Assembly (NCBI GenBank): GCA_964345045.1
Contig: CAYFPM010000003.1
Coordinates: forward strand, 70,038 to 134,037
DNA length: 64,000 bases
From: an uncultured Gammaproteobacteria bacterium
Lineage (GTDB): Bacteria > Patescibacteriota > Patescibacteriia > Magasanikbacterales > UBA922
Reading direction: 5' to 3'
In this document: positions 14,548-64,000 of the stretch, piece by piece
How positions within the stretch are numbered: the stretch's first letter is position 1
Layout of the letters: each line of letters starts with the position of its first letter
Translations under genes and position numbers: made by a program
Notes under the pieces: model-generated
Told to the model about the DNA's origin: nothing
Databases searched by the model: none
Seen by the model: the letters and a program-made list of their open reading frames with translations, nothing else

Positions 14548-15183
14548 GTGAATAATTTCTCTTTTCCTGCCAGAATTTCTTGCCACGGAAGATTCAACTC
14601 CATTCGACTAATCCGAGCTACGGTCCCGATCATACCCGACGAGACAAATGCACTGATCGAATTGCGATGGCAAGAAGAGCTAGCAAGGAATCCTAAACTC
14701 CACAACGGCTCACTTGCAGCCCTGCATGCGCTGAATGCAAAGTGTGATCAACTAGAAGTTCGGTGGTGCGAAAGCAACTACCGAGAGTACCTGGGTGCCA
14801 GTCACCCTAACATCCCAAACGAACACCGACGACTACCTATGAGTGTAGGACTCCTCGTCCGAGTCAACTACTCTAGCTACCTAGTCGCAACTCGCAGTCC
14901 AGGGGTAGACTGGCCACTCATGCGTCACCTCAGCGCAGCTGGCGGAGTCAAAGCCGGTGAAAACCCCTTCGACGTAGTCCTGAGAGAGGCCAAAGAAGAA
15001 CTGGGGCTAGACCCTCATGAACTAGAGCCCCTTTCTTGCCTGGGTGTAGTCGAAGATCTGGTGAGGCCGCAGTACATGTTCGTCTTCGTGGCCGATGTAC
15101 AAATCTCCGAAGCAGAACTGATCAAGAGAGCCGCCGCGGCCCCCTCTGCAGAAGAAAACTGCCAACTTACTTTCCTGGATTAG
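14548..15183 (+). CDS. NUDIX hydrolase (high-GC cassette gene).
   Basis: The Nudix box is canonical: GGVKAGENPFDVVLREAKEELGL matches Gx5Ex7REUxEExGU. The ORF has a GTG start. The true start may be the internal Met at MSVGLL. Confidence 0.75.
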   Translation: MNNFSFPARISCHGRFNSIRLIRATVPIIPDETNALIELRWQEELARNPKLHNGSLAALHALNAKCDQLEVRWCESNYREYLGASHPNIPNEHRRLPMSVGLLVRVNYSSYLVATRSPGVDWPLMRHLSAAGGVKAGENPFDVVLREAKEELGLDPHELEPLSCLGVVEDLVRPQYMFVFVADVQISEAELIKRAAAAPSAEENCQLTFLD

Positions 15184-40560: not shown

Positions 40561-41991
40561 TTAATTTTCTAAATTATTTTCTTCTACAACAGTATCTTCC
40601 ATTTCTTCTTTTACCTCGTCAAAGCTCGCCTCAGGACGAGCGTCGACGGGTTCCTCTTTATTTTCTAGATTTTCAATTTCTTCTACTACTTTGGCAGCAT
40701 CGTTTACTACTTGTTTTACTTCTACTACCAATTCTTTAACTGTCTTTTTTACCTCTGCTAATTCTTGTACCTTTTGCAAAGCACCTTCTAGATCATCATT
40801 TTCTATTAAGCTATCCACTTCTACCAAAGTTTCACCAGCCTTTTTAGTAGCTTCTACTGTTGTTTCTCCTACTTCGTCTACAGTTTCTTTTACAGTCTTT
40901 TCTTTATCATTATTCTTAATTTCCTCTTCATTTATATTTTCTTCTACATTATTTTCTTCTGGTTCTTCGGAAGAATTCTCTTCTACAACTTCTTCGGTTA
41001 CTTCTTCTGTTTCAGCTTCTTTTACTACTTTGGCTACCGGAATTGTACTAAGAGTAGAACTGGAAGAAACCAAAATTCCTGTTTCTTCTAGTTCTGTATC
41101 CAAGGCTTCTATTTCGGATACGATTCTATCTATTCTTTTTTCTATTTTTTCTTTTACTTCTTCTTTGTTTACACCAGCTTCAGCATCTTCTTTCTTTTTT
41201 ACCAATACTTCTACGGCTTTTACACCGGTGTCTTGGATCAAGTTTTCTACTTCTCCCACTTCTTTGGTCAAATCTTTTGATTCTTGTTCTTCTTCTGCTA
41301 TTTCTTCTAGGTTTTCTGTTTCTTCATCACCAGCTTCTGTTTCCTTTTCCAATTCTGTAGGTTCGATAATATCTTTTTTCTCTCCCAAAGCTAGTAATAT
41401 CTCTTCTGTTTTTTCTTCTACTACTTTGGCTATGGCTACAGCTTGTTTTGGAGATTTTGATTCTGTTTTTTCCAAACTTTTGTTAGCAGATTCTATTTTC
41501 TTTTTCAAAGACTTTATAGAAGCAGCGGCTTGTTTGGTATTTGTAGCTTTTTTAAATTCTTCTACTTTTACAGCTGCATGTTTTAGATTGGTGGCAGCCT
41601 TTCCTTCTTCCGAACCAATTACAGTAGCTACCAAAAGTTCTGTGGTTTCGGCTGCTAATTTTACACCATATAGAGCTTCTCCAGGCAAACTATCTTGTGA
41701 AGCGCTAACACTAGCAATCCAACCTCCTACAGCCACAATTCCTACCAAAAATACTGTTAGACTAAATCTAGTTGCCAAAAGTAATTTGTTTGGAACAAAA
41801 ATGTGTAAAATTCCTGAAAGACTTTCCAATAAACCATTTGCACTAAAAGAGGTTTTTTCTTTTGTTTCTTGTGAAGTTGTGATTGTGCTTAACAATTGTT
41901 TTTTGTTTTCCAAAACCCAAGAAGGATCAGGGTTTACCTGACTTTTTGATTCTCTAATTGCTTTTAGTTGTGCAGCGAGTTCTTTACTCAT
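40561..41991 (-). CDS. Putative anti-sigma factor. It has a single TM and a DUF5667-like extracytoplasmic domain with an acidic, Glu-rich C-terminus.
   Basis: It lies immediately downstream of the ECF sigma gene with an 8-nt overlap. The TM is RFSLTVFLVGIVAVGGWIASV. The C-terminus is E/K-rich, repetitive and predicted coiled-coil. Confidence 0.6.
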   Translation of the reverse strand: MSKELAAQLKAIRESKSQVNPDPSWVLENKKQLLSTITTSQETKEKTSFSANGLLESLSGILHIFVPNKLLLATRFSLTVFLVGIVAVGGWIASVSASQDSLPGEALYGVKLAAETTELLVATVIGSEEGKAATNLKHAAVKVEEFKKATNTKQAAASIKSLKKKIESANKSLEKTESKSPKQAVAIAKVVEEKTEEILLALGEKKDIIEPTELEKETEAGDEETENLEEIAEEEQESKDLTKEVGEVENLIQDTGVKAVEVLVKKKEDAEAGVNKEEVKEKIEKRIDRIVSEIEALDTELEETGILVSSSSTLSTIPVAKVVKEAETEEVTEEVVEENSSEEPEENNVEENINEEEIKNNDKEKTVKETVDEVGETTVEATKKAGETLVEVDSLIENDDLEGALQKVQELAEVKKTVKELVVEVKQVVNDAAKVVEEIENLENKEEPVDARPEASFDEVKEEMEDTVVEENNLEN

Positions 41992-42541
41992 ATTTATCTT
42001 CCAAAAGTTCTTTTAACTTATTTATAGCTCTATGTAGTGTTACACGCACACTACTGGCTTTTTTATCCAGAACTTCGGCGATTTCTTTGGTACTAAGACC
42101 TTCTACATGTCTTAGATGAATAACATCTTGGTATTCTTGTTTTAAAGATTTTATAGTTTCTAATAACTGCTCGGCATCCTGACTAACTGCAGTCTCGTGA
42201 TGTAAATCGGTTTTTGAATTTATTCCAACCGCTTCTTCTATTGGCAGCTCTTTTCTTTTGGCTCTGTCTCTGTAAACATCTACAATCTTGTTGCGAGCGA
42301 TAGCGTAAACCAAGGCTCTAAAGCTTTTTATCTCTATATCCTTATTCTTGGTTAAATAATCCCAAGCTTTTAGAAAAACCTCACTAGTGACATCCTCGGC
42401 CTCTTCTTTGTTGGATATTTTGAAATAAACGAACCTATATATTGGTTCTACGTATTTGTCGTACAAAACAGCATAAGATTCGGCATCTTTGTTGTTGCGA
42501 ACCTTGTACAAGAACAATTTTTCTTTAATATTGCTGTTCAT
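41984..42541 (-). CDS. RNA polymerase sigma-70 factor, ECF subfamily.
   Basis: Region 2 reads YVEPIYRFVYFKISNKEEAEDVTSEVFLKAW and region 4 reads LSTKEIAEVLDKKASSVRVTLHRAINKL. I chose the start at the ATG (MNSNIKE) rather than the upstream TTG. Confidence 0.85.
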   Translation of the reverse strand: MNSNIKEKLFLYKVRNNKDAESYAVLYDKYVEPIYRFVYFKISNKEEAEDVTSEVFLKAWDYLTKNKDIEIKSFRALVYAIARNKIVDVYRDRAKRKELPIEEAVGINSKTDLHHETAVSQDAEQLLETIKSLKQEYQDVIHLRHVEGLSTKEIAEVLDKKASSVRVTLHRAINKLKELLEDKYE

Positions 42542-42908
42542 AAGAGTAGACGAGAAAATAGGAAAAGTGTTACACCTAAATATCAAAATGCCTATAACGG
42601 CGCTTATTATACATTATTATTATATGTTTGAAAACGTACCTTATCAGGACAAATTCAGTCTTTGTTCCAACTTTTTTACTTCTTTTTATCAAATTTTAGA
42701 ACGGCATATTTATACCAAATTATCTACAAAAAGTCAACCCCAACGACCACCTTTTGTATAGACTATTGTATACAAATACAGGAATTTTTAGTCTTTTTTA
42801 GTAGAAATTTAGAGCCAAAAACAATTCTAAAAACTTAATTTTTTAAATTTTTGAATACCAAAATTATTCTCTATAAATGTTTTTTGCCAAAATATTAGAC
42901 AAAAAATC

Positions 42909-43283: not shown

Positions 43284-43320
43284 ACCCCGATATAAATCGG
43301 GGTTTTGTTTTTGTTATTTT
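43283..43320 (+). terminator. Intrinsic terminator.
   Basis: AACCCCGATataaATCGGGGTTttgtttttgttatttt. Confidence 0.7.
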
Positions 43321-43328
43321 GGAATGAA

Positions 43329-43377
43329 GGTTGGCCCGCGTCCTGCTACAGCCGAAGCTGGAGGACGCGAGCCAACC
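43329..43377 (-). terminator. GC-rich 15-bp inverted repeat. It is a probable terminator or boundary hairpin for the foreign small gene.
   Basis: GGTTGGCCCGCGTCC, then 19 nt, then GGACGCGAGCCAACC. It lies directly 3' (minus strand) of 43395..43703. No clean U-run is present. Confidence 0.4.
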
Positions 43378-43394
43378 TATGGCCGCGAGGAGTA

Positions 43395-43703
43395 CTAGCT
43401 ACCCTCGATCTCGAGGTGGCCGGCACGAGTGTTGGCGTTGTAGAAGCACTGCATCGACATCTCGTTCTGGCCCACCCGCAGGTAGCCCTTGATACAGAAC
43501 ATGCCCGGCGAGCCCGACTCGTACTCGAGTCCGGTAACCCTCACCTGCAGCTCCCGCACGCTGGCTCCGGACGCCATTGGTATGGCGTGGAACGTGAGCA
43601 GCCAGGGCCGCTCCGTGTCGTCGAAAGCCCGAGTGAACGCGTTGATCACGTCCGGGGCACTGGGGTTCTTGCAAGTCTCCTGGATATCGTAGCGAGTGGT
43701 CAT
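43395..43703 (-). CDS. Hypothetical 102-aa protein encoded by a compositionally foreign gene (about 60% G+C by eye).
   Basis: A strong GAGGAGGG Shine-Dalgarno lies 5 nt upstream of the ATG at 43703. The sequence is not low-complexity. The two overlapping longer ORFs are treated as GC shadow frames. Confidence 0.6.
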   Translation of the reverse strand: MTTRYDIQETCKNPSAPDVINAFTRAFDDTERPWLLTFHAIPMASGASVRELQVRVTGLEYESGSPGMFCIKGYLRVGQNEMSMQCFYNANTRAGHLEIEGS

Positions 43704-43756
43704 AAGACCCTCCTCTGTGGCTGTTTTCAAATAGCTGGTGCCACATAACCAGACCA

Positions 43757-43790
43757 AAAAAAATATCACAAAAAAACTCCCCTGTCAAGA
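43757..43790 (-). promoter_or_regulatory. Putative sigma70-like promoter for the 43395..43703 gene.
   Basis: The minus strand reads cTTGACAggggagtttttttgtgaTATTTT, about 55 nt upstream of the SD and ATG. Confidence 0.3.
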
Positions 43791-53481: not shown

Positions 53482-53494
53482 TTTTTCAAAAACA

Positions 53495-53530
53495 AAAAAT
53501 CCAGAGATAATCTCTGGGTTTTTTGTTTGG
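53495..53530 (+). terminator. Intrinsic terminator.
   Basis: aaaaaatCCAGAGAtaaTCTCTGGgttttttgtttgg. Confidence 0.7.
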
Positions 53531-53589: not shown

Positions 53590-53991
53590 TTAGTACTCAA
53601 GACTAATCCCCCGTTGTCCTTTTTCCCCCACATACGGCATAGGGCGAAAATAAGGTTGCGAGGTTGCAGCTGGAGGTTTTTTGCAGGTATACCACGGCTT
53701 TGGGCTATTGCCACAACGATAGATACGTGCTCCTGGCCACCTGTTACAGACCCTATTTCTATAGGTAGTAAATGCCTCCCCTTTTCTTGGAGTCATACTG
53801 ATCTTGGTAGAGTATCCTCTACTATCCCCCACATACACAGCAAAAGAACAAATGTGTGGTTTGGGCAAATGGCTTAGCGCCAATTCGTCGACACAGTGTG
53901 GTAGCCAACCGTGCAACCAATACAGTACTCCCAAAACCAAGAGCACATGGATACCTCGGATCTTTAGAGCCTCTTTGGCCAATCTGTTCAT
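53590..53991 (-). CDS. Small secreted cysteine-rich hypothetical protein (133 aa). It is the first gene of the high-GC block.
   Basis: An AAGGGAG Shine-Dalgarno precedes the ATG. The N-terminus has a signal/TM segment (GIHVLLVLGVLYWLHGWLP). The mature part contains 6 Cys. Confidence 0.55.
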   Translation of the reverse strand: MNRLAKEALKIRGIHVLLVLGVLYWLHGWLPHCVDELALSHLPKPHICSFAVYVGDSRGYSTKISMTPRKGEAFTTYRNRVCNRWPGARIYRCGNSPKPWYTCKKPPAATSQPYFRPMPYVGEKGQRGISLEY

Positions 53992-54243: not shown

Positions 54244-55737
54244 ATGAATCACAGCTACGAAATTTGGTCCAGGCAACTGATAAACGCGGCAGACAAGGCC
54301 CTCCAAGATGTCGCTGCCCAACGAAAGCCCAACATGGGCTGGTGGCAAAGCTACTTGAAGCAATACAAGTTGCTAGGTGGAAAAACAGAAAAACTAGAAC
54401 GCTCTCCGGTGCTCGAGGCGGCCAACAATGTCTTTCATGTTTGGATAGCTCTTACCAACAGTATTCCGCTGTTGGTAGGGGTAGAGACAGGTATGGCCGA
54501 TCGCCACTACCTAGAAGCCTTTGTCCCAGACGAGTTCTTGGCGGCTATGACCGCCATCTTCTACGACATCTTGCCCCCTCACCAGAGGAATATCCTCATC
54601 AACAACCTGATTACGGCTCGTTTTCAAGAGGCTGCGACACCCTGGATTGCAGACCAGCGACAGCAGGCTCCGCAAACTCTAGAAAACACAAATATAAACA
54701 AGAGAGAAAATCTCTATCGAGAAATTCAAGCTCTTGCTAGGCTTTGGTTTGCTTCCACCAAGTTCGATCCTTTACCTCAGGCCGCTATCCAGTTCGGGCC
54801 ACAGGGGATCGAGCTAGATGCCACTCGATCGGAAAAAGTTGCTCACAATCTTTTGGCCAGTGAATTTGGTTTTGGTCCGGGTGGAGACCCCGAACCAGAA
54901 CACCGTCGCTGGGCCAAAAGGGTGATTGCCCAGTGTCGACACCGGCATCCTTGGGCTAGACCAGAGCGACTCGAGCGCTACACCGATGCCTTGCAGACGG
55001 TTCGAGACTACTATATTGGCGAGGATTCTGGAGAAGCTAGCGAGAAAATCCGTGATCAGGCCGAGAGGATGATGAGTTCTTTTGGTCTAGATGACGATTT
55101 TGCCTTGATCATGATCTTGGCAGAAGCTTTGGCACTAGCCACTGACTTTTTCTTGCACCCCAATATGTCGAACGAAGACAGGCTACGGGTGGTAGAGCAC
55201 ACCACTTACCAGCAGCTAATTCACAATGAGCTGAACCAACACGAGTGGCGAGTGATCTTGCATACTTTCTTGAGCATTGCCAGCAAAGGATCTCCTCTGG
55301 GAGTTCTTCGTATCGAACAGCTAGATCCGGATCTAGAAGAGGCATTGCAAACCAGGTTCAGAGCTATGGCTCTCATGTTCATGAAGGATCATGACTACAC
55401 GGTCAAAGAACCTCTGCACGTCTTGGCCGAACAAAAAGCCAACAGCCGTATGGCCAAAGCCAAACGTTTGGCAATGAGCAGCTTCTGGTGGGTCTTGCGC
55501 TTTGTACCGGTCTTGCTTTTCTCACGCGACCGAGCCAAGTTTGCTGCCAAGTGGCAGGAACTGCGCTCTATCTGGGGTCTACCTCCCAAGCCAGTCGAGG
55601 AAGTGGTAGAGACAGAGGCTTTGCCAGAGTCGGCCGACAAGACTGATCCTACAACAGAGGATGTAGAGACCACCGGCGATGTTGCCGAGGTCATCCCCAT
55701 GCGTTCTGCGGTTGGGGATCGTCCTTCCGAAAAATAA
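54244..55737 (+). CDS. Hypothetical soluble 497-aa protein of no recognisable family (elevated G+C).
   Basis: The long ORF is in a different frame from the Arg-rich overlapping ORF 54180..54740. Tandem terminators follow it. Confidence 0.65.
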   Translation: MNHSYEIWSRQLINAADKALQDVAAQRKPNMGWWQSYLKQYKLLGGKTEKLERSPVLEAANNVFHVWIALTNSIPLLVGVETGMADRHYLEAFVPDEFLAAMTAIFYDILPPHQRNILINNLITARFQEAATPWIADQRQQAPQTLENTNINKRENLYREIQALARLWFASTKFDPLPQAAIQFGPQGIELDATRSEKVAHNLLASEFGFGPGGDPEPEHRRWAKRVIAQCRHRHPWARPERLERYTDALQTVRDYYIGEDSGEASEKIRDQAERMMSSFGLDDDFALIMILAEALALATDFFLHPNMSNEDRLRVVEHTTYQQLIHNELNQHEWRVILHTFLSIASKGSPLGVLRIEQLDPDLEEALQTRFRAMALMFMKDHDYTVKEPLHVLAEQKANSRMAKAKRLAMSSFWWVLRFVPVLLFSRDRAKFAAKWQELRSIWGLPPKPVEEVVETEALPESADKTDPTTEDVETTGDVAEVIPMRSAVGDRPSEK

Positions 55738-55751
55738 TTAGCTAGTAGTTT

Positions 55752-55848
55752 GGTACGAATAGTATTCGTACCTCCCATTCCTTTTGTTCTAAAATTTTTA
55801 GACCAAAAGCAAATAAAAAATCCTGAGTTACACTCAGGATTTTTTATT
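55752..55848. terminator. Tandem terminators between convergent genes.
   Basis: GGTACGAATagtATTCGTACC with a T-rich tail is at 55752-55790. aaaaaaTCCTGAGTtacACTCAGGAttttttatttc is at 55815-55848 and is bidirectional. Confidence 0.65.
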
Positions 55849-55980
55849 TCTCACTAAAACTTTTTTGCAAAGTTTTACTGGGAAGGTACGCCGGGCCGGA
55901 GCAGCTACTCGAGTTTCATCCGAAGATGATCCAAGAGAAGTGCTCCGGCCCTGGTTTAGGCGCGGACGATGAGAAGCTTG

Positions 55981-57957
55981 CTACGGACAGCCGTCGTCAG
56001 GCACACCGTTGCAGTCGTTGTCGTACCCCAGGTCGGCCGGGTTGGCGGGATCGCTCTCGCACCACTCGACCGCCCCAGGATGGTTCTGGAAACCCGTCGG
56101 GGTATCGTCGCAGTCACCACCGAGCAACTGAGAGACCGGAATCGAGCTGTTGCTAGACCCTCGACAAGGCGACACCTCGCAGTAGCCGTCCCCGTCGTCG
56201 TCCCAATCGTCCGCCGTGCCGTCGCTCTGCGGACCACCGTTGGCACCACTGGCACCATACGGCGTCCTACCGCGCTGATCCACGTAGGGCGCGCACAAGT
56301 TGCACGCCCAGTACGAACCGGCGGGGCAGGTCTGCTGCTGGGTGCAGCTACCACCCGTGGCCACGCACATGTCGGTGACCTCGTCGCAGACCTGACCGGC
56401 ACTGCAGGTGACCACAGTGCCCGACTGGCAGGTACCGCTCTGGCACGTCTCCGTTCCGTTGCAGTACGAACCATCGTCACAGTCCGCGTTCACCGTACAC
56501 TGCGGCGGAGCCGCGGCGCAGTCGGGATCGTCTCCGTCGACGAGCCCGTCGGCGTCATTGTCCCAGTTGTCCGTGCAGTTGCCAAAGGCCTGGGTCTCGG
56601 GCTCGAAGGCCCCATCCCCGTCGTTGTCCTCGGCGCTGGTACAGACGTGACCCGTGGGCGTGGTCGTCGCAGTGTTGGTCGACGAACAGCCCCAGAGGAA
56701 GCCGGCCGGCAAGTTCGCCGGGGTGCGGTTCTCGAGGGGAGATCCGTTCCCGGTGATACCAGTCGGCGTCTGCATGCATTCTGCGTCCGAGGTCGGACCG
56801 TTGCAACAGTCGGGAATCCAGGACTGAACGCACTGACCGTTGACCGCCCCGTGCGTGGTGCACGCGTTGTTGTCGGCACAGTCCACGCACTGGTTGCTCT
56901 GGCAGGCGAAGCCCACCGCACAATCCGCATCCGTGGCACAGCCCAAGCACGTACCGGCCGTCACCCCCGAGATGTCCGAACACACACCGCTGGCGCAGTC
57001 GTTGTGATCGTCACAGCAGAGGGGGTTGGTGCTGGCCGTGTTCACGCAAGCGTGATTCACGGCGTTGTCGGTGGTACAGGCGTCGCCGTCGTCGCAGTCG
57101 AGAACCGTACAGATGTTCGCGGTGCAAACTTCGTCGGTACGACAGTGGGCGTCCACGAGACACTGCTCGCAGGTACCCGCCGCCGAGGTCGAGGTCTCGG
57201 TACAGAACAAGCCGTCTTGGCACGGAGCCGAGGCAGGCGCGGCGTTGCAACAGTTGGGAATGGCCTGGTTCACGCACCCCATCGTCCCGACGGTGTCCGT
57301 GGTGCAGGCGTTGCCATCGTCGCAGCCGGTGCAGGTGTCGGTGGTATCATCGCAGTACTCGGTAGCGAGGCAGGCACTGGCGCCGCTCTGGCAGGTACCG
57401 GAGACCATGTCGCAGGTCTCGGCACCGTTGCAGAAGAGGCCGTCACTGCAGTCCGCGTCCGAGAGACAGCTGACGCAGCGATCGCCCGCCTCGTCGCACA
57501 TCTCGGTGGCGGCACACGGAGGCGCGGTCACTTGGCAGGTACGTCCGGTGGTGGACGTCCCCACGCAGGTGGCGCTCCCGTTGCAGAAGAGGCCATCGGC
57601 CCCGCAGTCCGCGTCGGAGAGGCACTGACAGCTGATCCCCTCGTCGACATTGCCATCGCAGTTGTCGTCGATACCGTTGCAGATCTCGGTGGCGCCGGGG
57701 TAGACGTTCGGGTTGTGATCGTCACAGTCCGGAGGCCCATCGACGATGGCTCCATCGTTGCAGTTGTTGTCGTAGTACGTCTGATTCGGAGAACCGTCGC
57801 CGTCGCTGTCGATGGAGTTCTTGTCATCGCAGATGTGGACACGGACAGTGCCCGAAACGTTGACGAAGTCGGTACCGCAAGCCGTGAGGCCCGCGGTGAG
57901 CAGGAAGGTGAAGAGAGACAGACAGAGTCGCTTGGCTTGCGCCATGGTGACCTCCAA
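55981..57957 (-). CDS. Cys-rich repeat lipoprotein (658 aa). It carries Myxococcales-type cysteine-rich repeats and MopE-like putative metal-binding motifs. G+C is very high, roughly 65-70% by eye.
   Basis: A GGAGG Shine-Dalgarno lies 6 nt upstream. The lipoprotein signal is MAQAKRLCLSLFTFLLTAGLTAC. Recurring motifs include DCDDHNPNVYPGATEICNGIDDNCDG, CxSDADCxDGLFCNGxETC and CDDGNACTTDxxxxxxC. Confidence 0.8.
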   Translation of the reverse strand: MEVTMAQAKRLCLSLFTFLLTAGLTACGTDFVNVSGTVRVHICDDKNSIDSDGDGSPNQTYYDNNCNDGAIVDGPPDCDDHNPNVYPGATEICNGIDDNCDGNVDEGISCQCLSDADCGADGLFCNGSATCVGTSTTGRTCQVTAPPCAATEMCDEAGDRCVSCLSDADCSDGLFCNGAETCDMVSGTCQSGASACLATEYCDDTTDTCTGCDDGNACTTDTVGTMGCVNQAIPNCCNAAPASAPCQDGLFCTETSTSAAGTCEQCLVDAHCRTDEVCTANICTVLDCDDGDACTTDNAVNHACVNTASTNPLCCDDHNDCASGVCSDISGVTAGTCLGCATDADCAVGFACQSNQCVDCADNNACTTHGAVNGQCVQSWIPDCCNGPTSDAECMQTPTGITGNGSPLENRTPANLPAGFLWGCSSTNTATTTPTGHVCTSAEDNDGDGAFEPETQAFGNCTDNWDNDADGLVDGDDPDCAAAPPQCTVNADCDDGSYCNGTETCQSGTCQSGTVVTCSAGQVCDEVTDMCVATGGSCTQQQTCPAGSYWACNLCAPYVDQRGRTPYGASGANGGPQSDGTADDWDDDGDGYCEVSPCRGSSNSSIPVSQLLGGDCDDTPTGFQNHPGAVEWCESDPANPADLGYDNDCNGVPDDGCP

Positions 57958-58437
57958 TCAAAGCCAGCTTCTCGAAAGATGCTGACGAGTTACAAGTTCT
58001 GGCGCCCCGGAATGGAGCTCCACAATCGTGGTGCCTTGTCCCAGGCGCCTCGGGTCGTTGGGCAGCTAGGTAGCCATCCGCAGAGTTTGGTTTTTTTGTA
58101 GTCATAGAGAGTGCTAACGAAAGATCCAAGTGGTAATAGAAAAAGATACTTCTAATCCACTGCTTTACGCTCAGTATGACTAATTAACAAAAACAAACTC
58201 TGCAGACAACTTGCCTAGCAAAATCTTCTCATCGATTGTAATGAACAATCGTGTCTACTGTTTGAGTAGTGACACATAAAATATTTAGTAAACAACTAAC
58301 TATTTTATCTATCACAACTTTTTTACAAACTCTCTTTTGCCTTCAAACTTTTTTTAAAAGCACAAGAGAATTCGAGGTGTGGGCAGGGCACCTCTTCGAA
58401 CCGAAGTCCGAAGAGGGCCTGCCCACTGAAGCAAGAA

Positions 58438-58851
58438 CTACTGATCGATCGTGACCGTGGTCTGACCACTGTCGCGATTGACGTAGGCGTCGAGGTCGAG
58501 CTCGACCTCGGTCTTGCGGTCGAACCCACCGTTGGCCGCAATGGCTCCCACGGTGATGGCACCGGCGAGCAACAACACGCCGATGCCGATCGCGATCCCG
58601 ATGGTCGTGTTGTGCTCGCGCACGTCACGAGCCACGACGTCCTCGGCCTTGCGGCTCTTCCTGACCCGCTCCACGCACTTGCCGTACTCGGCCTTCTCGG
58701 ACGGATCCGAGAGGTTGAGCGGCACGCACACCGCCTCCGGGCTGGGGAGCCCGGCGGTCGGCGAACGCGGCGTGGTGGCGCAGCCCGAAGCGAAGACCAG
58801 CATGCAGACGAAGATAGAGACGAGACTGTAGAAGAAGTTGTTGTTCTTCAT
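58438..58851 (-). CDS. Glycine-zipper (2TM-type) lipoprotein.
   Basis: An AAGGAG Shine-Dalgarno lies 7 nt upstream of the second ATG. The lipobox is LVFASGC. The C-terminal IGIAIGIGVLLLAGAITVGAIAANGG is a glycine zipper. The start overlaps the stop of the upstream gene. Confidence 0.7.
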   Translation of the reverse strand: MKNNNFFYSLVSIFVCMLVFASGCATTPRSPTAGLPSPEAVCVPLNLSDPSEKAEYGKCVERVRKSRKAEDVVARDVREHNTTIGIAIGIGVLLLAGAITVGAIAANGGFDRKTEVELDLDAYVNRDSGQTTVTIDQ

Positions 58852-58868
58852 GATCTGGTTCTCCTTAT

Positions 58869-59837
58869 TCATCGCACGCCACCACGAACCGCAGTCCGCA
58901 TGCTTCGACGCTCGGCTTCGGCCGCGGTGGCCTTCTGCTCGAGGTTGTCGATGCGGATGTTGTCCCGGTTGTGACCGCTACGCAACAGAGTGATCGCATC
59001 CATGATCGACACGGTATCGGCAGCCCTGGCGGTCGCCTCGTCGACGAACGTCTTGTCCACGGCCGCGGCTCGCGCCTTGGCCGCCTTGGCGTTGGCAGCG
59101 ATCTTGGCCGTATTGGCCTTGATCTCGGTGTCGAGCGCGGTGTGAACCGTCGCCACGTCGCCACGAACCACCGCTTCGCGGGTGTCCGTGTAGGTCTTGG
59201 CGACCCGCTCCGTCTTGTCGATCTTCTGATCGGTCTCCATGTCGTGGAGCTTGCCCGCGAAGTAGGAAACCGTGAAGCCGAACGCGACGATGCCAGCCAG
59301 AGCGCCGATGACGCCCCAGCTCTTGCCACTCGACCACGAGTTCTTCATCTCGGCGCGGGTCTGCGCATCGATGAAGTCCCCGCGCAGGTCTCGCACCTCG
59401 TCGCCGAGGCGCTCGACCTGTCCGATGCGGTGCTGCGACAAGGTGTCGAGCTCCACGCCGTCGCCACCATTGCGCCCGTAGCGCTGCTGGGGACGGCTGG
59501 CCGCATCGAGCTGGTCGCCGAGCGCCCGCTCGGCCACGCCGATGTAGCGCCCGGCCAAGTCCGCGGTCAAGCGGTCGTGGCGCGGCTCCGGCACCTGCAG
59601 ACGAACCTGCGGCAAGTCCACGTCGACCGTGGGCCGCTGGGGCTCTCGGTCGACCACCACCGGCTCACGCCGCGTCGGCCGCTCGCCGACGTAGGTCTCG
59701 TCGATCTGGTCACGGTAGACCGGACCGCCGAAGTGGTGGTGATGCTGGTGCTCGTGTAGCCCTTGGCGTCGAGCGTCGTCGAAGGGATCCTGCCGGGTCC
59801 CGGGGTTCATGTTCAGTTCGGTTGCGTCACCGGACAT
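58869..59837 (-). CDS. Hypothetical bitopic membrane protein. It has a His-rich disordered N-terminal domain, one TM, and an Ala/Lys-rich coiled-coil C-terminal domain.
   Basis: An AGGAGGAA Shine-Dalgarno lies 6 nt upstream of the ATG at 59837. The His-rich tract is HEHQHHHH. The TM is WGVIGALAGIVAFGFTVSYFAG. The gene is co-transcribed with the downstream lipoprotein, overlapping it by 4 nt. The longer ORF-track N-terminus runs into AT-rich promoter DNA. Confidence 0.65.
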   Translation of the reverse strand: MSGDATELNMNPGTRQDPFDDARRQGLHEHQHHHHFGGPVYRDQIDETYVGERPTRREPVVVDREPQRPTVDVDLPQVRLQVPEPRHDRLTADLAGRYIGVAERALGDQLDAASRPQQRYGRNGGDGVELDTLSQHRIGQVERLGDEVRDLRGDFIDAQTRAEMKNSWSSGKSWGVIGALAGIVAFGFTVSYFAGKLHDMETDQKIDKTERVAKTYTDTREAVVRGDVATVHTALDTEIKANTAKIAANAKAAKARAAAVDKTFVDEATARAADTVSIMDAITLLRSGHNRDNIRIDNLEQKATAAEAERRSMRTAVRGGVR

Positions 59838-60364
59838 GGTGTTCCTCCTAGTCCGATCAAGTGCCCGAGAAAAAATCTCAGGCCAGGTTGTAAGTACTAG
59901 CGAAAAATCCGCGCTGCAGGGCATGCCTAGCAGACATGCTTGTCTGGCTACTGCCAGGCATCCCCACAACGGGGGTCCTCTACAAACACGGTTATTAGCT
60001 ACAAAATTTGCAACCAATATTCCGTGTTTGTAAAAGTAGTTCTTGCTTCTTGTAAAGAACCGTGTCAACTATATTTGTGACACCTGAGATATACACCAAA
60101 TTGATATATATTTCAATAGGCACAAAAAACCAATAAAGCATTTTTTAACATCATATAATAGCACATTTTAACAAATTTGTCAAGACTCTTATTAACTAAT
60201 TATTATATTTGTGTGTCTTAATTTTTGTTAAAAATTTGCCTAATTTTAGCTATTTTTACAAGACCTTTTGTCCACAATAATTATTCTGAACAAAAGGAAG
60301 TGGCGGCACTCTGTAGTATCTCTACTATAGAGTGCCGCAAAAAAATGAAGCAGTGTGTGAGGCT

Positions 60365-62617
60365 CTAGCTAGAGCTACCCCCACGAGACGGCCACGGAGA
60401 CCTAGAACCCAATCCAGTCCCCCTAGAGCTATGCTCATCCAAGGCGGCCTGGGACTCCGGATCCAGATCCGTCGACAGACTCACCTCTCCGTTACTCGGA
60501 GCAGAATCGTCGGTATCCCACGAGGGCCTAGGCGTCACCACCGTCTCGGGCAGATCCCGAGGCAGAGCCTCTCGCAAGGGAGGCTCCGGGTCTTGCCCAG
60601 CGTCTCCCGACGATGAGGGCAAGTCCTCGGTGGTTACCTCCGGGTCAGTCTCCTCTGCCGGCGAGGGCAGACGGAACTCCGGAGCATCCAGCCCGAAGGT
60701 ACCTTCGAAGTTACTGATACCGGCAAGCAAGACATCGATCTCGTCGCCAGTACTGCGTTTGAGCTGCTTGGGCATCTCACCAGTCCAGCCCTGGCTCCGC
60801 AGCCAGTCCTCGTTCGGTACGCAGCCGTTCTGGGCCTCTTCGCGGCTGGGCCACGAGAGCGGCCAGCGCGGCAGCTTCTGATCCCCGGCCAAGGCCATGG
60901 CCTCCATGGCGAACACCCTGGAGAGAACATCGGCCAACGAACCTTCGTAGCACTGCTGAGCGTACCGCCGAATGAGGTCGTAGGACACCCCCGGACTCTT
61001 GGACAGAGCTCGGTAGACCGGGTTCAGAAGGCACATCTGAACCGCCTGAAGCATGGTTGGGTAGACCTTGGTACGCAGTTTATCCACAGCCTTGCGAGCG
61101 CGCTCGATGGCCTCCGTGGGATCGACCCAATCGAGAGACTCGAGAGTCTCACGATCGAGATGCCAGGGCCTCTGCCCCAACGTCTCGAGAGGATCGCTCT
61201 TGACCGGCAGGTCGCTGCGCCACGGGGGCACATGGTAGCCGTCGGCCTCCAGCTCTTGCTTGGCCAGGAGAAGCTTCCGTAGGACATCGCCCGGGCCGTC
61301 TTCTCGTTGCCAGTGCTCCGAGAAGGCCTGCTCGAGCTGTGCCGTAGTCTGGCAGTTGCCTTGCGGCGACTGCTGCCCGACCCGACCGATGCGCCACTCG
61401 TGGTAGTTCATGAGAGCCTTCGAGGCTTCTGCCTGGAGGGTCAGATACTTCTTCTCCTCCGGACTCATGAACAGGTACTTCCAAGTCATGGCCTTGTAGA
61501 CCAAGAGCAGAAGCACCACCGCCATGGCGAGGCCAAGGATGACCCAACGGGTCTCTTGGTCTACCTTGCGCAGCTCGGTGAGAGCCTCACTCGTGTCGGA
61601 GTAGCCCCCCTGGTACCAACGCTGATCCGGCTTCTCGGCCTTTACCAGTGCTGCCAAGTCCATGGCCTTGAGCTCTTCGAGCTTGGCCTGGAACTCGGCT
61701 TCCAGCTTGGCCAGAGCCTCTCGCTTGTCCTTGGTATGCTTCTCCTCGAGACCGGGCGTCTCGGCGTCGAAACCAGCCAAGATCGACTCGGTCTGGCCTT
61801 CGTAACTGTCTTGACTCCCGGCTGCGGCACCCGCTGCTCCAGAGAGAGCGGCAGCCGCCGCGGCTCTGGCCGAAGCGATCGAGGCGATAGTGCTGGTACG
61901 GGTACCAGCCCAACGCGCCGAGCGCATGGTCCGACGAGCCCGACGACCTCGAGCCTTGGCACCGGCTCGCCGACGCCGCTCGATTTGGTCCTTGGTAGCT
62001 GCTCGATCCGACTGAAAGGCGGCCTTGGCACCAGCAAGCTGGCCCTCGGCCGCCGTGATCTGGGGCTCGTACTCGGCCTTGATCTTGGCTTCGGCCGCCG
62101 TACGGAGTTCGAGCTCGATCTTGTCGTTCTGAGCGGTCATCCAGCGATCGATGTCGCTTTGGAAGATGGCCATCTCGAAGTACTTGGCAAACCCAAACTG
62201 GATGATGAACACCACAGCGATGTAGACCAGATACTTGAACTTGCTTCCCGAGCTTACTCGCCAACTGTCTGGGCTGGCGATGTAGATGGTTCGGTGCAGA
62301 GCGGCGATGGCAGCTGCCACGAGCAGGCCTGCCAGAATGGCAATGGCCAGCTGCGTGTACAGCCCGTACTGATCCAGGAAGAGGCTCACGTACTTCGCGG
62401 CTCCCACCGCATCATACGCAAACAAGACGGCGAGAATGATGGTGGCGCCCACGAGGACACCTTCCATCTTCTCGGTGATCTTGTCGAAGCCTTTCCGAAG
62501 GAGGAACGGGTCAAAGGGCTTCTTGCCCAAGTTGTCGGTGTTGTTGGTATCCACGAAAGAACCTCCCTTTCTGTGGAGATCGGTGCAGTAGAGACAAATC
62601 GCCTCAAACTGCTTCAT
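60365..62617 (-). CDS. Large hypothetical membrane protein of about 750 aa. It has N-terminal TM helices, a long Ala/Arg/Glu-rich coiled-coil, an internal TM, a C-terminal globular domain and an acidic Pro/Ser-rich tail.
   Basis: The ORF is 60365..62803, with a GTG at 62803 in AT-rich DNA. I chose the first ATG (MKQFEAI, 62617) but the start is uncertain. G+C is above 60% by eye. Confidence 0.6.
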   Translation of the reverse strand: MKQFEAICLYCTDLHRKGGSFVDTNNTDNLGKKPFDPFLLRKGFDKITEKMEGVLVGATIILAVLFAYDAVGAAKYVSLFLDQYGLYTQLAIAILAGLLVAAAIAALHRTIYIASPDSWRVSSGSKFKYLVYIAVVFIIQFGFAKYFEMAIFQSDIDRWMTAQNDKIELELRTAAEAKIKAEYEPQITAAEGQLAGAKAAFQSDRAATKDQIERRRRAGAKARGRRARRTMRSARWAGTRTSTIASIASARAAAAAALSGAAGAAAGSQDSYEGQTESILAGFDAETPGLEEKHTKDKREALAKLEAEFQAKLEELKAMDLAALVKAEKPDQRWYQGGYSDTSEALTELRKVDQETRWVILGLAMAVVLLLLVYKAMTWKYLFMSPEEKKYLTLQAEASKALMNYHEWRIGRVGQQSPQGNCQTTAQLEQAFSEHWQREDGPGDVLRKLLLAKQELEADGYHVPPWRSDLPVKSDPLETLGQRPWHLDRETLESLDWVDPTEAIERARKAVDKLRTKVYPTMLQAVQMCLLNPVYRALSKSPGVSYDLIRRYAQQCYEGSLADVLSRVFAMEAMALAGDQKLPRWPLSWPSREEAQNGCVPNEDWLRSQGWTGEMPKQLKRSTGDEIDVLLAGISNFEGTFGLDAPEFRLPSPAEETDPEVTTEDLPSSSGDAGQDPEPPLREALPRDLPETVVTPRPSWDTDDSAPSNGEVSLSTDLDPESQAALDEHSSRGTGLGSRSPWPSRGGSSS

Positions 62618-62899
62618 TGTGAAATCGGACGGAAAACCGCCCCGAATTGGGAATCCGAGGTAACGGCTTCCACAATTTTTGGCTTGTAATCCACATAAGC
62701 CAAAAATTGTAAAAGCCGATCGGTAAAAAACCGTCCAAACATTATAAAGAACTCCGCTTTGGGTACAATTGTCCCACTTTAAGCGAACGGATAAAGATAC
62801 CACAAAATCAAACTTTTGTCAAGATTTTTTGCTAAATTTAGCTAAAATAAGCAAAAAACGCCCAAAGTAGGACGTTTTTATACTTGTTTAAATTGTTTT

Positions 62900-64000
62900 C
62901 TAGGCTGCTTTTGGCAAAGCAGGCTCTTTTCTAACCAATTGCATCTTGTCGTCTACCACCTCTACTTCGGCCAAAAATGATTCTGTCCCATCTACTGATT
63001 CTACCAAAAATCCTGTTTCCCCTGCCGGAGCCGGTTTGAAATTGTAGTTTTTGTCGTAGAAAAAACTTTCTCCTACATTTTTATCCCAAAACTTAATGGC
63101 ATGAGATCCTTCTGGAACAGCAAAATAAGGATCATCTTCGGTTACGCCTCTTAAGAAAATTTTAGATTCTGCATCCAAGTTTTTGAACGTTGCCAGCAAA
63201 TTTTCTGTTGGACTTTTGCTAGTATCGATTTGCATTCCAGTAAATACTGAATCCTCACCCAAACTTAATTTTTGGAAACGTAGAGCTTGTTCAAAACTTT
63301 CGGCAATTGATTTGGCTTTGTCACTAGCATTTAATTTTATATCTCTAAAGGTAGCCATATCGTTGTCTACTTTGGATATATAAGCTTGTTCGGCTTGGCT
63401 GTAACCAGATGCCATCTCTGCCCCAGAAGCAGCTGCTGGTTCGGCCGGCTCGGCTGCTGCTTCGGCTTTTGGAGTAGCAGTTTCAACTATTTTTTCGGTG
63501 CCATATACTCCACCACTACTTTGTGCCAAATCTGTTGTATCTGCAGCAAGAAAATCTTTTTCTTTGGCTTCGTCCAAACTAACTTCTTCTTGACCTACCT
63601 TTACCTCTGCTTCTCCGAGAGGTTCTTTGACAATTAATTCCGAACCGCCGGTTAATTCTAATTTTGTTCCATCGGCACTTAATTTCAAATGACCAATTAT
63701 ACTACCGTCTTTGGCAAAGGCAGCCCAATCGGCTTGGTCTACAGCGCCAACTCTGCCACTGTATAATCTACCAACCTGATCAATCCCCGCTTCGGTAGGG
63801 ACAAATCTAGCAATTCCATCTGTTCCTACTTCTTGGTTTACAGCAATTCCGTTGGCAAATTCTTGTGGAATTTTGTCTCCTTTGTATACAAAATTAGCGC
63901 CTCTTGATTCATCTGGTAATATAATTTTTTTATCACCTTGAACAATTGTATCCCTATAAAATTGTTCGGACAGATCTCCTTTTAGATCTAGATTACCGCT
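62900..64000 (-). CDS. Hypothetical protein, partial (the 5' end lies beyond the window end). It is low-GC and host-like.
   Basis: The reverse-complement frame is open from 64000 down to the stop at 62900. The ORF-track start at 63688 is only an internal TTG. The product is hydrophilic with Ala/Glu/Pro-rich linker regions. Confidence 0.6.
   Translation of the reverse strand, partial: SGNLDLKGDLSEQFYRDTIVQGDKKIILPDESRGANFVYKGDKIPQEFANGIAVNQEVGTDGIARFVPTEAGIDQVGRLYSGRVGAVDQADWAAFAKDGSIIGHLKLSADGTKLELTGGSELIVKEPLGEAEVKVGQEEVSLDEAKEKDFLAADTTDLAQSSGGVYGTEKIVETATPKAEAAAEPAEPAAASGAEMASGYSQAEQAYISKVDNDMATFRDIKLNASDKAKSIAESFEQALRFQKLSLGEDSVFTGMQIDTSKSPTENLLATFKNLDAESKIFLRGVTEDDPYFAVPEGSHAIKFWDKNVGESFFYDKNYNFKPAPAGETGFLVESVDGTESFLAEVEVVDDKMQLVRKEPALPKAA

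What the first reader, a model, noticed from the sequence alone, without database searches (positions are those of the whole stretch)
58438..59837. Two-gene operon: a His-rich bitopic coiled-coil protein translationally coupled to a glycine-zipper lipoprotein
58869..59837 has an AGGAGGAA Shine-Dalgarno. Its cytoplasmic part of about 180 residues is low-complexity and His-rich (HEHQHHHH). One TM follows, then an Ala/Lys-rich periplasmic coiled-coil. Its stop overlaps the start of 58438..58851, a lipoprotein with a C-terminal GxxxG glycine-zipper membrane hairpin. The arrangement resembles anti-sigma or stress-sensor pairs or a membrane tether. It is not identical to any family I can name.
Basis: seen in the sequence. 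Interest (0 to 1): 0.6.

Follow-up and report, generated by a model that had tools for sequence, protein, structure and literature searches.

The report
Orphan foreign two-gene membrane-protein operon
Two tightly linked genes for a single-pass membrane protein and a small lipoprotein are real. They have no detectable relatives anywhere, and they sit in a block of GC-rich foreign genes inside an AT-rich genome, so their function remains a guess.

Summary
The gene pair is real. ORF1 (58869..59837, minus strand, 322 aa) has an AGGAGGAA ribosome-binding site, an HEHQHHHH cluster, one membrane helix and a helical Ala-rich outer domain. ORF2 (58438..58851, 137 aa) has a lipoprotein signal (LVFASG|C).

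- The ATGA stop/start overlap belongs to the alternative start at 58872. The 58851 start lies 17 nt after the stop, behind its own AAGGAG.
- ORF2's Gly/Ala-rich segment is 25 residues and is followed by a 31-residue tail. It is one helix, not a C-terminal hairpin.
- "His-rich" is one 8-residue cluster.

Neither protein matches Pfam, NCBIfam, PADLOC, PDB, phage, plasmid or metagenome collections. An exhaustive phmmer search of 1.84 billion representatives returned only ORF1 itself. The anti-sigma, DUF883/ElaB and Slp/Pcp readings all failed. The only lead is a weak ORF2 hit to a phage "Rz-like spanin" family (E 2e-4).

The main new fact is context. The pair and its neighbours have GC3 of 0.71–0.89 against 0.18–0.36 in host genes. 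They share one codon usage and carry canonical Shine-Dalgarno sites that host genes lack, and AT-rich spacers separate them.

Best guess: a horizontally acquired membrane-anchored envelope complex of unknown role.

The parts
60155..60231 (-). Two near-consensus sigma-70-like promoter candidates in the AT-rich spacer upstream of ORF1: TTGACA-17-TATTAT with TG (60183-60155) and TTAACA-18-TATAAT (60231-60202). They imply a leader of about 310 nt.
   Evidence: (consensus scan; 17 sites in the region against 5.2 expected). These are pattern matches, not evidence of transcription.
60058..60083 (-). Palindrome GTGTCAC-N8-TTGACACGGTT in the ORF1 leader. The only other copy in the 64 kb window (GTGTCAC-N11-TAGACACGATT, 58247-58275) lies upstream of the MopE-like gene. 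It is a candidate shared operator.
   Evidence: (2 matches against 0.24 expected; 2 of 100 shuffles reach 2).
59912..59971 (-). Long imperfect hairpin in the GC-rich last ~150 nt of the leader. This stretch appears to be part of the imported block.
   Evidence: (171-nt leader, -68.7 kcal/mol, z -3.4). The only Rfam matches are sub-threshold chance hits.
59842..59849 (-). Shine-Dalgarno AGGAGGAA of ORF1; the GGAGG core ends 6 nt before the ATG.
58869..59837 (-). ORF1, 322 aa. Layout: N-terminal cytoplasmic part (aa 1-172), one membrane helix (aa 174-195), helical Ala-rich extracytoplasmic domain (aa 196-322). No Cys. Stop codon TGA.
   Evidence: No relatives found.
59733..59756 (-). His cluster HEHQHHHH (aa 28-35). 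It is followed by a P/R/E/V-rich segment with no predicted structure (to about aa 86).
59343..59579 (-). Two predicted cytoplasmic helices (aa 87-114 and 129-165). The second shows heptad periodicity and ends 8 residues before the membrane helix.
   Evidence: (low-confidence model).
59253..59318 (-). ORF1 membrane helix WGVIGALAGIVAFGFTVSYFAG, which contains GALAG (a GxxxG motif).
58872..59252 (-). ORF1 extracytoplasmic helical domain, 127 aa (A 20%, T 12%, R 10%, K 8%).
58977..59012 (-). Polymorphic patch, codons 276-287. It holds the only 4 differences in 3497 nt between two assemblies: V276L, M279I, L284R, S287R. All four change the amino acid.
   Evidence: The Logan contig breaks at 58986. 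No template copy exists in the window.
58861..58866 (-). Shine-Dalgarno AAGGAG of ORF2, 9 nt before the ATG at 58851 and immediately after ORF1's TGA.
58438..58851 (-). ORF2, 137 aa (144 aa if started at ATG 58872, which overlaps ORF1's stop as ATGA). Layout: signal peptide and lipobox (aa 1-23, Cys24), 57-aa outer segment with a Pro-rich start, Cys42, Cys59 and a charged helix, then a membrane helix (aa 82-106) and an acidic 31-aa tail.
   Evidence: No relatives found. Weak phrog_456 hit.
58534..58608 (-). ORF2 Gly/Ala-rich membrane helix TTIGIAIGIGVLLLAGAITVGAIAA.
   Evidence: No Gly-zipper Pfam family matched at E <= 1.
58379..58426 (-). GC-rich 22-bp hairpin starting 12 nt after the ORF2 stop codon, with no adjacent U-run. 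It marks the end of the imported block and is a probable transcript end or stabiliser.
   Evidence: (-43.5 kcal/mol, z -5.4). The terminator scan did not call it.

Best explanation
SHOWN. This is a genuine bicistronic unit of about 1.6 kb, roughly 58375-59990, comprising leader, ORF1, ORF2 and an end hairpin. It was acquired by horizontal transfer from a GC-rich donor that uses Shine-Dalgarno sites. It came in with at least two neighbouring units of the same codon usage: a 729-aa four-helix membrane protein upstream and a Cys-rich MopE-motif lipoprotein downstream. The recipient is an AT-rich genome whose own genes lack Shine-Dalgarno sites. Both proteins are orphans.

INFERRED. ORF1 inserts N-in/C-out. 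Its N-terminal part, including the His cluster and a juxtamembrane coiled-coil-like helix, faces the cytoplasm, and its 127-aa helical domain faces outward. ORF2 is exported, lipidated at Cys24 and additionally held by one Gly/Ala-rich membrane helix, so its 57-aa segment lies on the outer face of the cytoplasmic membrane. The tight spacing (ribosome-binding site within 10 nt of ORF1's stop, or ATGA overlap) favours coupled translation in similar amounts. The two proteins most likely form one membrane-anchored envelope complex. It would be held together by their small-residue membrane helices (GALAG in ORF1; GIAIG, AGAITVG and GAIAA in ORF2) and their adjacent charged helices. It would act as a structural or tethering element of the cell surface rather than as an enzyme.

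What the complex does is not established.
For: Real genes: codon-position GC pattern, ribosome-binding sites, membrane helix and lipobox.

Operon: there are no internal signals, promoter candidates lie upstream and a hairpin lies downstream.

Independent assemblies cover the unit and both island junctions.

Foreign origin:
- GC3 is 0.85 and 0.89 against 0.18-0.36 in the AT-rich host genes.
- Codon usage (RSCU) correlates at 0.83-0.92 among ORF1, ORF2, P658 and P812, and at -0.41 to -0.66 with three typical host genes.
- All four carry canonical Shine-Dalgarno sites, against about 1 of 38 host genes.
- The amino-acid make-up is Ala/Arg/Gly/Asp-rich.

Orphan status.

Topology and helices.

Every gene of the block encodes a membrane or lipid-anchored protein, and the surrounding host region is surface-glycan biosynthesis.
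Against: - No experiment or comparative datum links the two proteins physically.
- The structure models are single-sequence and low in confidence (pLDDT 48.7 and 64.9).
- ORF2's flanking charges run against the positive-inside rule for the proposed topology: 5 Lys/Arg on the outer side against 2 on the tail side.
- The host's envelope type is unknown, because the organism could not be identified.
- Codon usage is so far from the host's that poor expression, or no function in this host, is possible.
- The only variation seen is four amino-acid-changing substitutions, including L284R. That fits relaxed constraint as well as surface diversification.
Confidence: 0.4

Rival explanations
1. The pair is spanin-like and derives from a phage lysis module. 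ORF1 would act as the inner-membrane i-spanin with a helical periplasmic domain. ORF2 would act as the lipoprotein partner, or as a unimolecular spanin with a lipid anchor plus a membrane helix. Together they would bridge or fuse the two membranes.
For: - Gene order and spacing match the 'separated/overlapped' i-spanin then o-spanin layout, and a lipoprotein signal plus a later membrane helix is the u-spanin definition (PMC6139136).
- ORF2 aa 13-78 hits PHROG phrog_456 'Rz-like spanin' at E 1.9e-4, and at 6.5e-5 for aa 1-80.
- The hit disappears when either the signal peptide or residues 25-80 are removed or shuffled, so it is not pure composition.
- The mature N-terminus of ORF2 is Pro-rich and carries two further Cys.
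Against: - No holin, endolysin or any other phage gene lies nearby, and PHROGs gave nothing for the neighbours.
- tblastn against 50,697 phage genomes found nothing for ORF2 and only E >= 0.7 noise for ORF1. IMG/VR scans were negative.
- ORF1's membrane helix lies after 172 cytoplasmic residues, not at the N-terminus. ORF1 has no Cys and no PHROG spanin hit.
- ORF2's 57-aa outer segment is too short to cross a typical periplasm, and its membrane helix is followed by a 31-aa tail.
- At 22-24 bits, and after testing six proteins, the hit is borderline.
Confidence: 0.1
2. The pair is a transmembrane signalling module for metal or envelope stress. ORF1 would be an anti-sigma-like or sensor protein, with its His cluster or outer domain sensing a signal. 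ORF2 would be an accessory lipoprotein, and the MopE-motif lipoprotein would be co-regulated with them.
For: - ORF1 is bitopic with a substantial cytoplasmic part and an HEHQHHHH cluster.
- The neighbouring gene carries the Pfam 'putative metal-binding motif' MopE at E 1.4e-12.
- The palindrome GTGTCAC-N-GACACGRTT occurs only in the two spacers upstream of ORF1 and of the MopE-like gene.
Against: - No anti-sigma, zf-HC2, RskA, RseA, CnrX/CpxP or any other Pfam or NCBIfam domain matched at E <= 1.
- ORF1 has no Cys.
- No sigma factor, response regulator or DNA-binding gene lies in the block. The nearest ECF sigma is 16 kb away, in host-type DNA, with its own downstream partner.
- One short His cluster is weak evidence for metal sensing.
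- The palindrome count is only 2.
Confidence: 0.12
3. The pair is inert or decaying cargo. The genes were imported recently and remain intact, but they do nothing useful in this host.
For: - Codon usage is extremely mismatched to the host.
- All searched proteins of the block are orphans.
- The only polymorphisms change amino acids, and one puts Arg into a hydrophobic stretch.
Against: - The reading frames are intact in all assemblies, with no frameshifts or stops.
- Each unit sits behind an AT-rich spacer carrying near-consensus promoter motifs.
- Outside the 36-nt patch, 3.5 kb shows zero differences between assemblies.
- Four foreign genes are retained in a gene-dense genome.
Confidence: 0.2
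4. The proteins are ordinary members of known small-envelope-protein families, namely a DUF883/ElaB-type stress protein plus an Slp, Pcp or SlyB glycine-zipper lipoprotein, diverged beyond easy recognition.
For: There is a loose resemblance only: ORF2 is a lipoprotein with a Gly-rich hydrophobic segment, and ORF1 is a helical membrane-anchored protein.
Against: - Pfam-A (24,736 models, which cover these families) returned none of them at E <= 1, and NCBIfam returned none either.
- ElaB-type proteins are about 100 aa and tail-anchored, whereas ORF1 has 127 residues beyond its membrane helix.
- ORF2's hydrophobic segment is 25 aa and is modelled as one helix.
Confidence: 0.03
5. The locus is an assembly chimera, with GC-rich fragments of another organism stitched into an AT-rich contig.
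For: The composition switches abruptly at gene boundaries.
Against: Megahit contigs from two runs and a Logan contig reproduce the GC-rich/AT-rich junctions at 99.9-100% identity. This includes both outer junctions with host genes: L004 (69 kb contig), L005, L003, L001 and L002.
Confidence: 0.02

Closest known systems
Two-component phage spanins (lambda Rz/Rz1 type i-spanin plus o-spanin)
   Same: An inner-membrane protein with a helical outward-facing domain is encoded immediately before a small lipoprotein, with overlapping or abutting genes. The lipoprotein starts Pro-rich and has extra Cys. There is a weak PHROG hit to phrog_456 'Rz-like spanin' (definitions from PMC6139136).
   Different: There is no lysis cassette or phage context. 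ORF1 carries 172 cytoplasmic residues before its membrane helix and has no Cys. ORF2 has its own membrane helix and tail. No sequence match exists to any of 50,697 phage genomes.
Unimolecular spanin (phage T1 gp11)
   Same: ORF2 combines an N-terminal lipoprotein signal with a later membrane helix in a protein of about 130 aa (for the definition).
   Different: In gp11 the membrane helix is at the C-terminus and the periplasmic part is long and predicted to be beta. ORF2 has only 57 outer residues, largely helical in the model, followed by a 31-aa tail, and it is paired with ORF1.
Glycine-zipper lipoproteins (Pcp/SlyB, Pfam Gly-zipper_Omp, Gly-zipper_YMGG, Rick_17kDa_Anti)
   Same: Each is a small lipoprotein with a Gly/Ala-rich hydrophobic stretch.
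   Different: No Pfam match at E <= 1. The segment is 25 aa, has one GxxxG and is modelled as a single helix. From general knowledge of the family, a two-helix zipper needs about 40 aa.
Bitopic anti-sigma factors (RseA, zf-HC2 class)
   Same: The topology is N-in/C-out, with a cytoplasmic domain of 100-170 aa and an outer domain.
   Different: There is no anti-sigma domain hit, no HxxxCxxC motif (ORF1 has no Cys) and no adjacent sigma gene.
DUF883/ElaB-type tail-anchored stress proteins
   Same: Both are helical, charged and membrane-anchored.
   Different: There is no Pfam match. ORF1 is three times longer and has a 127-aa domain beyond its membrane helix.

Membership tests
Two-component spanin (i-spanin + o-spanin) | The i-spanin has an N-terminal membrane helix followed by a helical or coiled-coil periplasmic domain (PMC6139136). 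| tested here: not met
   ORF1's only membrane helix is at aa 174-195, after 172 cytoplasmic residues. The helical outer domain is present.
Two-component spanin (i-spanin + o-spanin) | The o-spanin is a small outer-membrane lipoprotein (lipobox), encoded within, overlapping or just after the i-spanin gene. | tested here: inconclusive
   The lipobox LVFASG|C and the gene position fit. However, ORF2 also has a membrane helix and a tail, which is not an o-spanin feature.
Two-component spanin (i-spanin + o-spanin) | The pair is located in a phage or prophage lysis cassette next to a holin and an endolysin. | tested here: not met
   The neighbours have no PHROG, Pfam or NCBIfam phage or lysis hits. 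The viral scans were negative.
Two-component spanin (i-spanin + o-spanin) | Sequence similarity to a known spanin family. | tested here: inconclusive
   ORF2 against phrog_456: E 1.9e-4, 22 bits, order-dependent. ORF1 has no spanin hit. tblastn against phage genomes was negative.
Unimolecular spanin (T1 gp11 type) | An N-terminal outer-membrane lipoprotein signal plus a C-terminal membrane helix, with a periplasm-spanning domain between them. | tested here: inconclusive
   The signal and a later helix are present. The helix is not terminal (a 31-aa tail follows), and the 57-aa intervening segment is probably too short to span a periplasm.
Glycine-zipper lipoproteins (SlyB/Pcp; PF13488, PF13441, PF05433, PF13436) | A profile match to a Gly-zipper family, meaning a GxxxGxxxG-type two-helix segment. 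| tested here: not met
   No such family matched at E <= 1 in Pfam-A. The segment is 25 aa and is modelled as a single helix.
Slp family lipoproteins | A profile match to the Slp family. | tested here: not met
   Pfam and NCBIfam gave no hit.
DUF883 / ElaB | A profile match to DUF883, in a protein of about 100 aa with a C-terminal tail anchor. | tested here: not met
   No Pfam hit. ORF1 is 322 aa and has 127 aa after its membrane helix.
Bitopic anti-sigma factors | An N-terminal anti-sigma domain (for example zf-HC2, RseA_N or RskA) and an adjacent cognate sigma factor gene. | tested here: not met
   There are no domain hits and ORF1 has no Cys. No sigma gene lies in the block, and the nearest ECF sigma is at 41984-42586.
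Polysaccharide co-polymerase / chain-length determinant (EpsF, Wzz) | Two membrane helices flanking a large periplasmic helical domain, with a profile score above the cut-off. | tested here: not met
   TIGR03017 EpsF scored 14.2 bits against a cut-off of 422.75, over a coiled-coil stretch only. ORF1 has one membrane helix.
Diversity-generating retroelement target | A template repeat and a reverse transcriptase near a variable region. | tested here: not met
   There is no second copy of the 58900-59100 region in the window, and no reverse transcriptase was found among the ORFs scanned. Sequence beyond the window was not examined.

The most novel reading that the evidence does not exclude
The pair is a previously undescribed envelope module. 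It could be a cellular, spanin-like membrane tether, or a new transmembrane sensing pair that is co-regulated with the MopE-motif lipoprotein through the shared GTGTCAC...GACACGRTT palindrome. It would belong to a set of surface-protein genes that an AT-rich bacterium lacking Shine-Dalgarno sites captured from an unsampled GC-rich lineage (a partner, host or prey) and rewired behind its own AT-rich promoters. The 36-nt polymorphic patch in ORF1's outer domain would then mark a surface under diversifying selection.
Probability: 0.12. Interest if true: 0.6.

Novelty: new variant of a known kind. Interest (0 to 1): 0.35.

Why it matters
The gene pair alone adds little. Orphan membrane proteins are common, and nothing here fixes a function.

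The context is more unusual. Four intact genes have GC3 of 0.71-0.89, one shared codon usage and canonical ribosome-binding sites. They sit in a genome whose own genes have GC3 of 0.18-0.36 and no such sites. Host-like AT-rich spacers carrying promoter motifs separate them, no mobility gene is nearby, and the three proteins searched have no homologue among billions of proteins.

If the genes are expressed, the locus would be a clean natural case of how strongly mismatched foreign surface genes are installed and expressed. It could also point to a GC-rich donor that has not been sampled.

Tried and rejected
Family and homology searches
- Pfam, NCBIfam, PADLOC and PHROGs on both proteins and their neighbours gave nothing except the weak phrog_456 hit.
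- PDB sequence search gave only noise.
- The word-indexed search of 5.8 billion clusters was run for ORF1, ORF2 and the 812-aa neighbour. Each returned only its own cluster.
- Exhaustive phmmer of ORF1 against 1.84 billion representatives returned only ORF1 itself.
- tblastn against phages and plasmids found nothing useful.

Locus scans of genome, viral and metagenome collections, using ORF1, the 812-aa protein and the flanking Wzy-like gene, found no relatives. As a result the organism could not be named and no empty-site comparison was possible.

Structure
- The single-sequence AlphaFold models were too poor for fold inference.
- Foldseek against PDB and viral structures gave nothing below E 0.8.

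Ideas checked and dropped
- Paralogy between ORF1 and the upstream 812-aa protein: rejected.
- A DGR-type origin for the SNP cluster: rejected within the window.
- A riboswitch or known RNA in the leader: none.
- An alternative genetic code: rejected, since the host uses TGA as a stop.
- A literature search for the project accession and for phrog_456: nothing.
Full report
1. WHAT IS AT THE COORDINATES

On the minus strand there are two abutting reading frames. ORF1 (58869..59837, 322 aa) starts at an ATG preceded by AGGAGGAA (59842-59849) and ends in TGA. ORF2 can start at ATG 58851 (137 aa), which lies 9 nt after an AAGGAG (58861-58866). It can also start at ATG 58872 (144 aa), which overlaps ORF1's stop as ATGA. 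Public gene calls use both starts.

Either way the second ribosome-binding signal lies within 10 nt of ORF1's stop, so coupled translation is plausible.

No promoter-like or terminator-like site lies between the genes. Two near-consensus sigma-70-type promoter motifs lie 320-390 nt upstream of ORF1 (60183-60155 and 60231-60202). A 22-bp GC-rich hairpin starts 12 nt after ORF2's stop codon (58379-58426, -43.5 kcal/mol, z -5.4).

Several features mark both frames as real genes rather than the chance ORFs that GC-rich DNA throws up. One is the codon-position GC pattern (ORF1 0.70/0.46/0.85; ORF2 0.58/0.45/0.89). The others are the ribosome-binding sites, the membrane helices and the lipobox. The 262-aa frame on the opposite strand is the usual shadow ORF.

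2. PROTEIN ANATOMY

ORF1 has the HEHQHHHH cluster at aa 28-35. A P/R/E/V-rich stretch without predicted structure follows, to about aa 86. Two helices come next (87-114, 129-165), the second with heptad periodicity. Then comes one membrane helix (174-195, WGVIGALAGIVAFGFTVSYFAG, containing GALAG). The last 127 residues form a helical domain with 20% Ala, 12% Thr, 10% Arg and 8% Lys, and the protein has no Cys. The heptad signal in the outer domain is carried mostly by the Ala-rich stretch 232-260, so 'coiled coil' is plausible but not shown.

ORF2 has a signal peptide with lipobox LVFASG|C (Cys24). Its 57-residue segment starts Pro-rich and contains Cys42 and Cys59, and a charged helix runs into a 25-residue Gly/Ala-rich hydrophobic helix (82-106). 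A 31-residue acidic tail follows. The model makes residues 50-107 one continuous helix, and the hydrophobic stretch is too short for a two-helix hairpin.

Both models are single-sequence and low in confidence (pLDDT 48.7 and 64.9). Only their secondary structure is used here.

3. HOMOLOGY: NONE

- Pfam-A, NCBIfam and PADLOC gave no family for either protein. The best 'hits' are far below the cut-offs.
- PDB sequences gave only noise.
- The 5.8-billion-cluster search returned only each protein's own cluster, which are near-identical copies from the same sequencing project.
- An exhaustive phmmer search of ORF1 against 1.84 billion representatives returned ORF1 alone.
- Phage and plasmid genomes (tblastn) and the viral and metagenome locus scans added nothing.
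- Foldseek on the models gave nothing below E 0.8, as expected for such models.

ORF1 has no anti-sigma domain and no Cys, and no sigma gene lies nearby. The nearest ECF sigma is at 41984-42586, in host-type DNA.

4. THE ONE LEAD

ORF2 aa 13-78 matches PHROG phrog_456, annotated 'Rz-like spanin' (E 1.9e-4; 6.5e-5 for aa 1-80). In a control the hit vanished under each of three changes: removing the signal peptide, shuffling residues 25-80, and shuffling the signal peptide. It is therefore order-dependent rather than purely compositional.

The layout does echo spanins: a membrane protein with a helical outer domain, followed at once by a lipoprotein. A lipoprotein with a later membrane helix is also the definition of a unimolecular spanin (PMC6139136).

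Four points argue against the spanin reading:
- ORF1's membrane helix is not N-terminal.
- ORF2's outer segment is short and its helix is not terminal.
- No holin, endolysin or other phage gene is nearby.
- No phage genome has a detectable relative.

I rate this reading at about 10%.

5. CONTEXT, THE MOST INFORMATIVE RESULT

The window is an AT-rich genome (30-37% GC; GC3 0.18-0.36) devoted here to surface-glycan synthesis. It encodes glycosyltransferases, sugar-nucleotide enzymes, Wzy-like ligases and PMT_2 proteins. From about 54.2 to 62.8 kb the genes are 51-67% GC, while the spacers between them stay at 20-35% GC.

ORF1, ORF2, the MopE-motif Cys-rich lipoprotein (55981..57957) and the upstream four-helix membrane protein (60365..62803) form a coherent foreign set:
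- GC3 is 0.71-0.89.
- Their codon usage correlates at 0.83-0.92 with each other and at -0.41 to -0.66 with three typical host genes.
- Each has a canonical Shine-Dalgarno site: AGGAGGAA for ORF1, AAGGAG for ORF2, GGAGG before ATG 57945, and AAGGGAGG before GTG 62554. About 37 of 38 host genes have none.

The 812-aa neighbour (probably 729 aa from the GTG at 62554) is itself an orphan. No integrase or transposase occurs anywhere in the window. The imported ORF1-ORF2 block seems to run from about 59990, including a GC-rich leader with a long hairpin (z -3.4), to the hairpin at 58379.

Independent assemblies reproduce the inner junctions and both outer junctions, so this is not a chimera. The organism could not be named. 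Neither the island genes nor a flanking host gene have relatives in the genome or metagenome collections. The host uses TGA as a stop codon, so the genetic code is standard.

6. TWO SMALL EXTRAS

First, the only four differences in 3497 nt between two assemblies fall within 36 nt of ORF1's outer domain, and all change the amino acid (V276L, M279I, L284R, S287R). By my own estimate, 4 x (36/3497)^3, the chance of such clustering is about 4e-6. A Logan contig breaks exactly there, which suggests two coexisting haplotypes. No template repeat is present in the window.

Second, the palindrome GTGTCAC-N8/11-(T/A)GACACG(G/A)TT occurs only twice in 64 kb, once upstream of ORF1 and once upstream of the MopE-like gene. 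It may be a shared operator, but n = 2.

7. HOW IT MOST LIKELY WORKS

Shown: the pair is a real, co-oriented, tightly spaced gene pair of foreign origin with the features listed above.

Inferred: ORF1 is N-in/C-out. ORF2 is lipidated and also held by one membrane helix. The two are made together and associate through their small-residue membrane helices and adjacent charged helices. The result would be a non-enzymatic, membrane-anchored surface complex. This fits a block in which every gene encodes a membrane or lipid-anchored protein, placed inside a surface-glycan region.

Weak points: ORF2's flanking charges oppose the positive-inside rule, the host envelope type is unknown, and expression is unproven. 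Confidence is about 0.4 for the descriptive model and much less for any specific role.

Rivals and my estimates:
- Inert recent cargo: 0.2.
- Metal or envelope signalling pair: 0.12.
- Spanin-like tether: 0.1.
- Diverged ordinary family: 0.03.
- Assembly artefact: 0.02.

8. VERDICT

The mechanistic interpretation is unsupported, but the claim 'no known family' holds strongly. The pair is an orphan variant of the common theme 'bitopic membrane protein plus lipoprotein'. Its interest lies mainly in the foreign, rewired island around it. Interest is 0.35.

Noticed in passing
window 54244-62803: This is a mosaic island in an AT-rich genome. The genes are 51-67% GC (GC3 0.55-0.89) and are separated by spacers of 20-35% GC that carry sigma-70-like promoter motifs. 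Four minus-strand genes share one codon usage and canonical Shine-Dalgarno sites, which the host genes lack. No integrase or transposase occurs in the window. Independent assemblies confirm the junctions.
   Followed up: partly
window 58977-59012: The only 4 SNPs in 3.5 kb between two assemblies cluster in 36 nt of ORF1's outer domain, and all change the amino acid. A Logan contig breaks at the same spot. No template repeat occurs in the window.
   Followed up: partly
window 60058-60083 and 58247-58275: The palindrome GTGTCAC-N8/11-GACACGRTT occurs only at these two places in 64 kb: upstream of ORF1 and upstream of the MopE-like gene. It may be a shared operator.
   Followed up: partly
window 60365-62803 (-): The upstream neighbour has three membrane helices, a long Ala-rich helical stretch, a fourth membrane helix and a 350-aa C-terminal part. 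It has no family hit and no relative outside its own cluster. Its likely true start is GTG 62554, behind AAGGGAGG, giving 729 aa.
   Followed up: partly
window 55981-57957 (-): This is a Cys-rich (12% Cys) lipoprotein with a MopE 'putative metal-binding motif' (E 1.4e-12) and internal repeats. Its likely start is ATG 57945, behind GGAGG. A weak hit to the myxobacterial Cys-rich repeat TIGR04201 hints at the donor type.
   Followed up: no
window 13602-15183, 43305-43790, 53590-53991: Further small blocks of raised GC (47-53%) lie in the AT-rich background. They comprise a 274-aa protein with no family, a NUDIX protein, and 124-aa and 133-aa ORFs with no family. They may be older or separate imports.
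   Followed up: no
window 433-53481: Nearly all host genes lack a Shine-Dalgarno sequence and have A/T-rich tracts before the start codon. Host stop codons are TAA 22, TAG 11 and TGA 5. The organism could not be identified with the collections available.
   Followed up: partly
window 53490-53528 and 55811-55849: Two similar (79%) AT-rich perfect-stem palindromes with T-runs on both sides, resembling bidirectional terminators, bracket the 497-aa plus-strand orphan gene at 54244-55737.
   Followed up: no
window 40561-42586 (-): An ECF-type sigma factor (41984-42586) overlaps the start of a 476-aa protein that has no family hit. That protein is a likely cognate anti-sigma partner and is unrelated to the finding.
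   Followed up: no
window 62900-64000 and L003 1-4653: The ORF at 62900-63688 is the C-terminal end of a 1550-aa protein (about 40% GC) that continues beyond the window and has no Pfam domain.
   Followed up: no
window 59912-59971 (-): A long imperfect hairpin lies in the GC-rich part of the ORF1 leader (z -3.4). A second small stem encloses the ribosome-binding site and the start codon. No Rfam family matches.
   Followed up: partly
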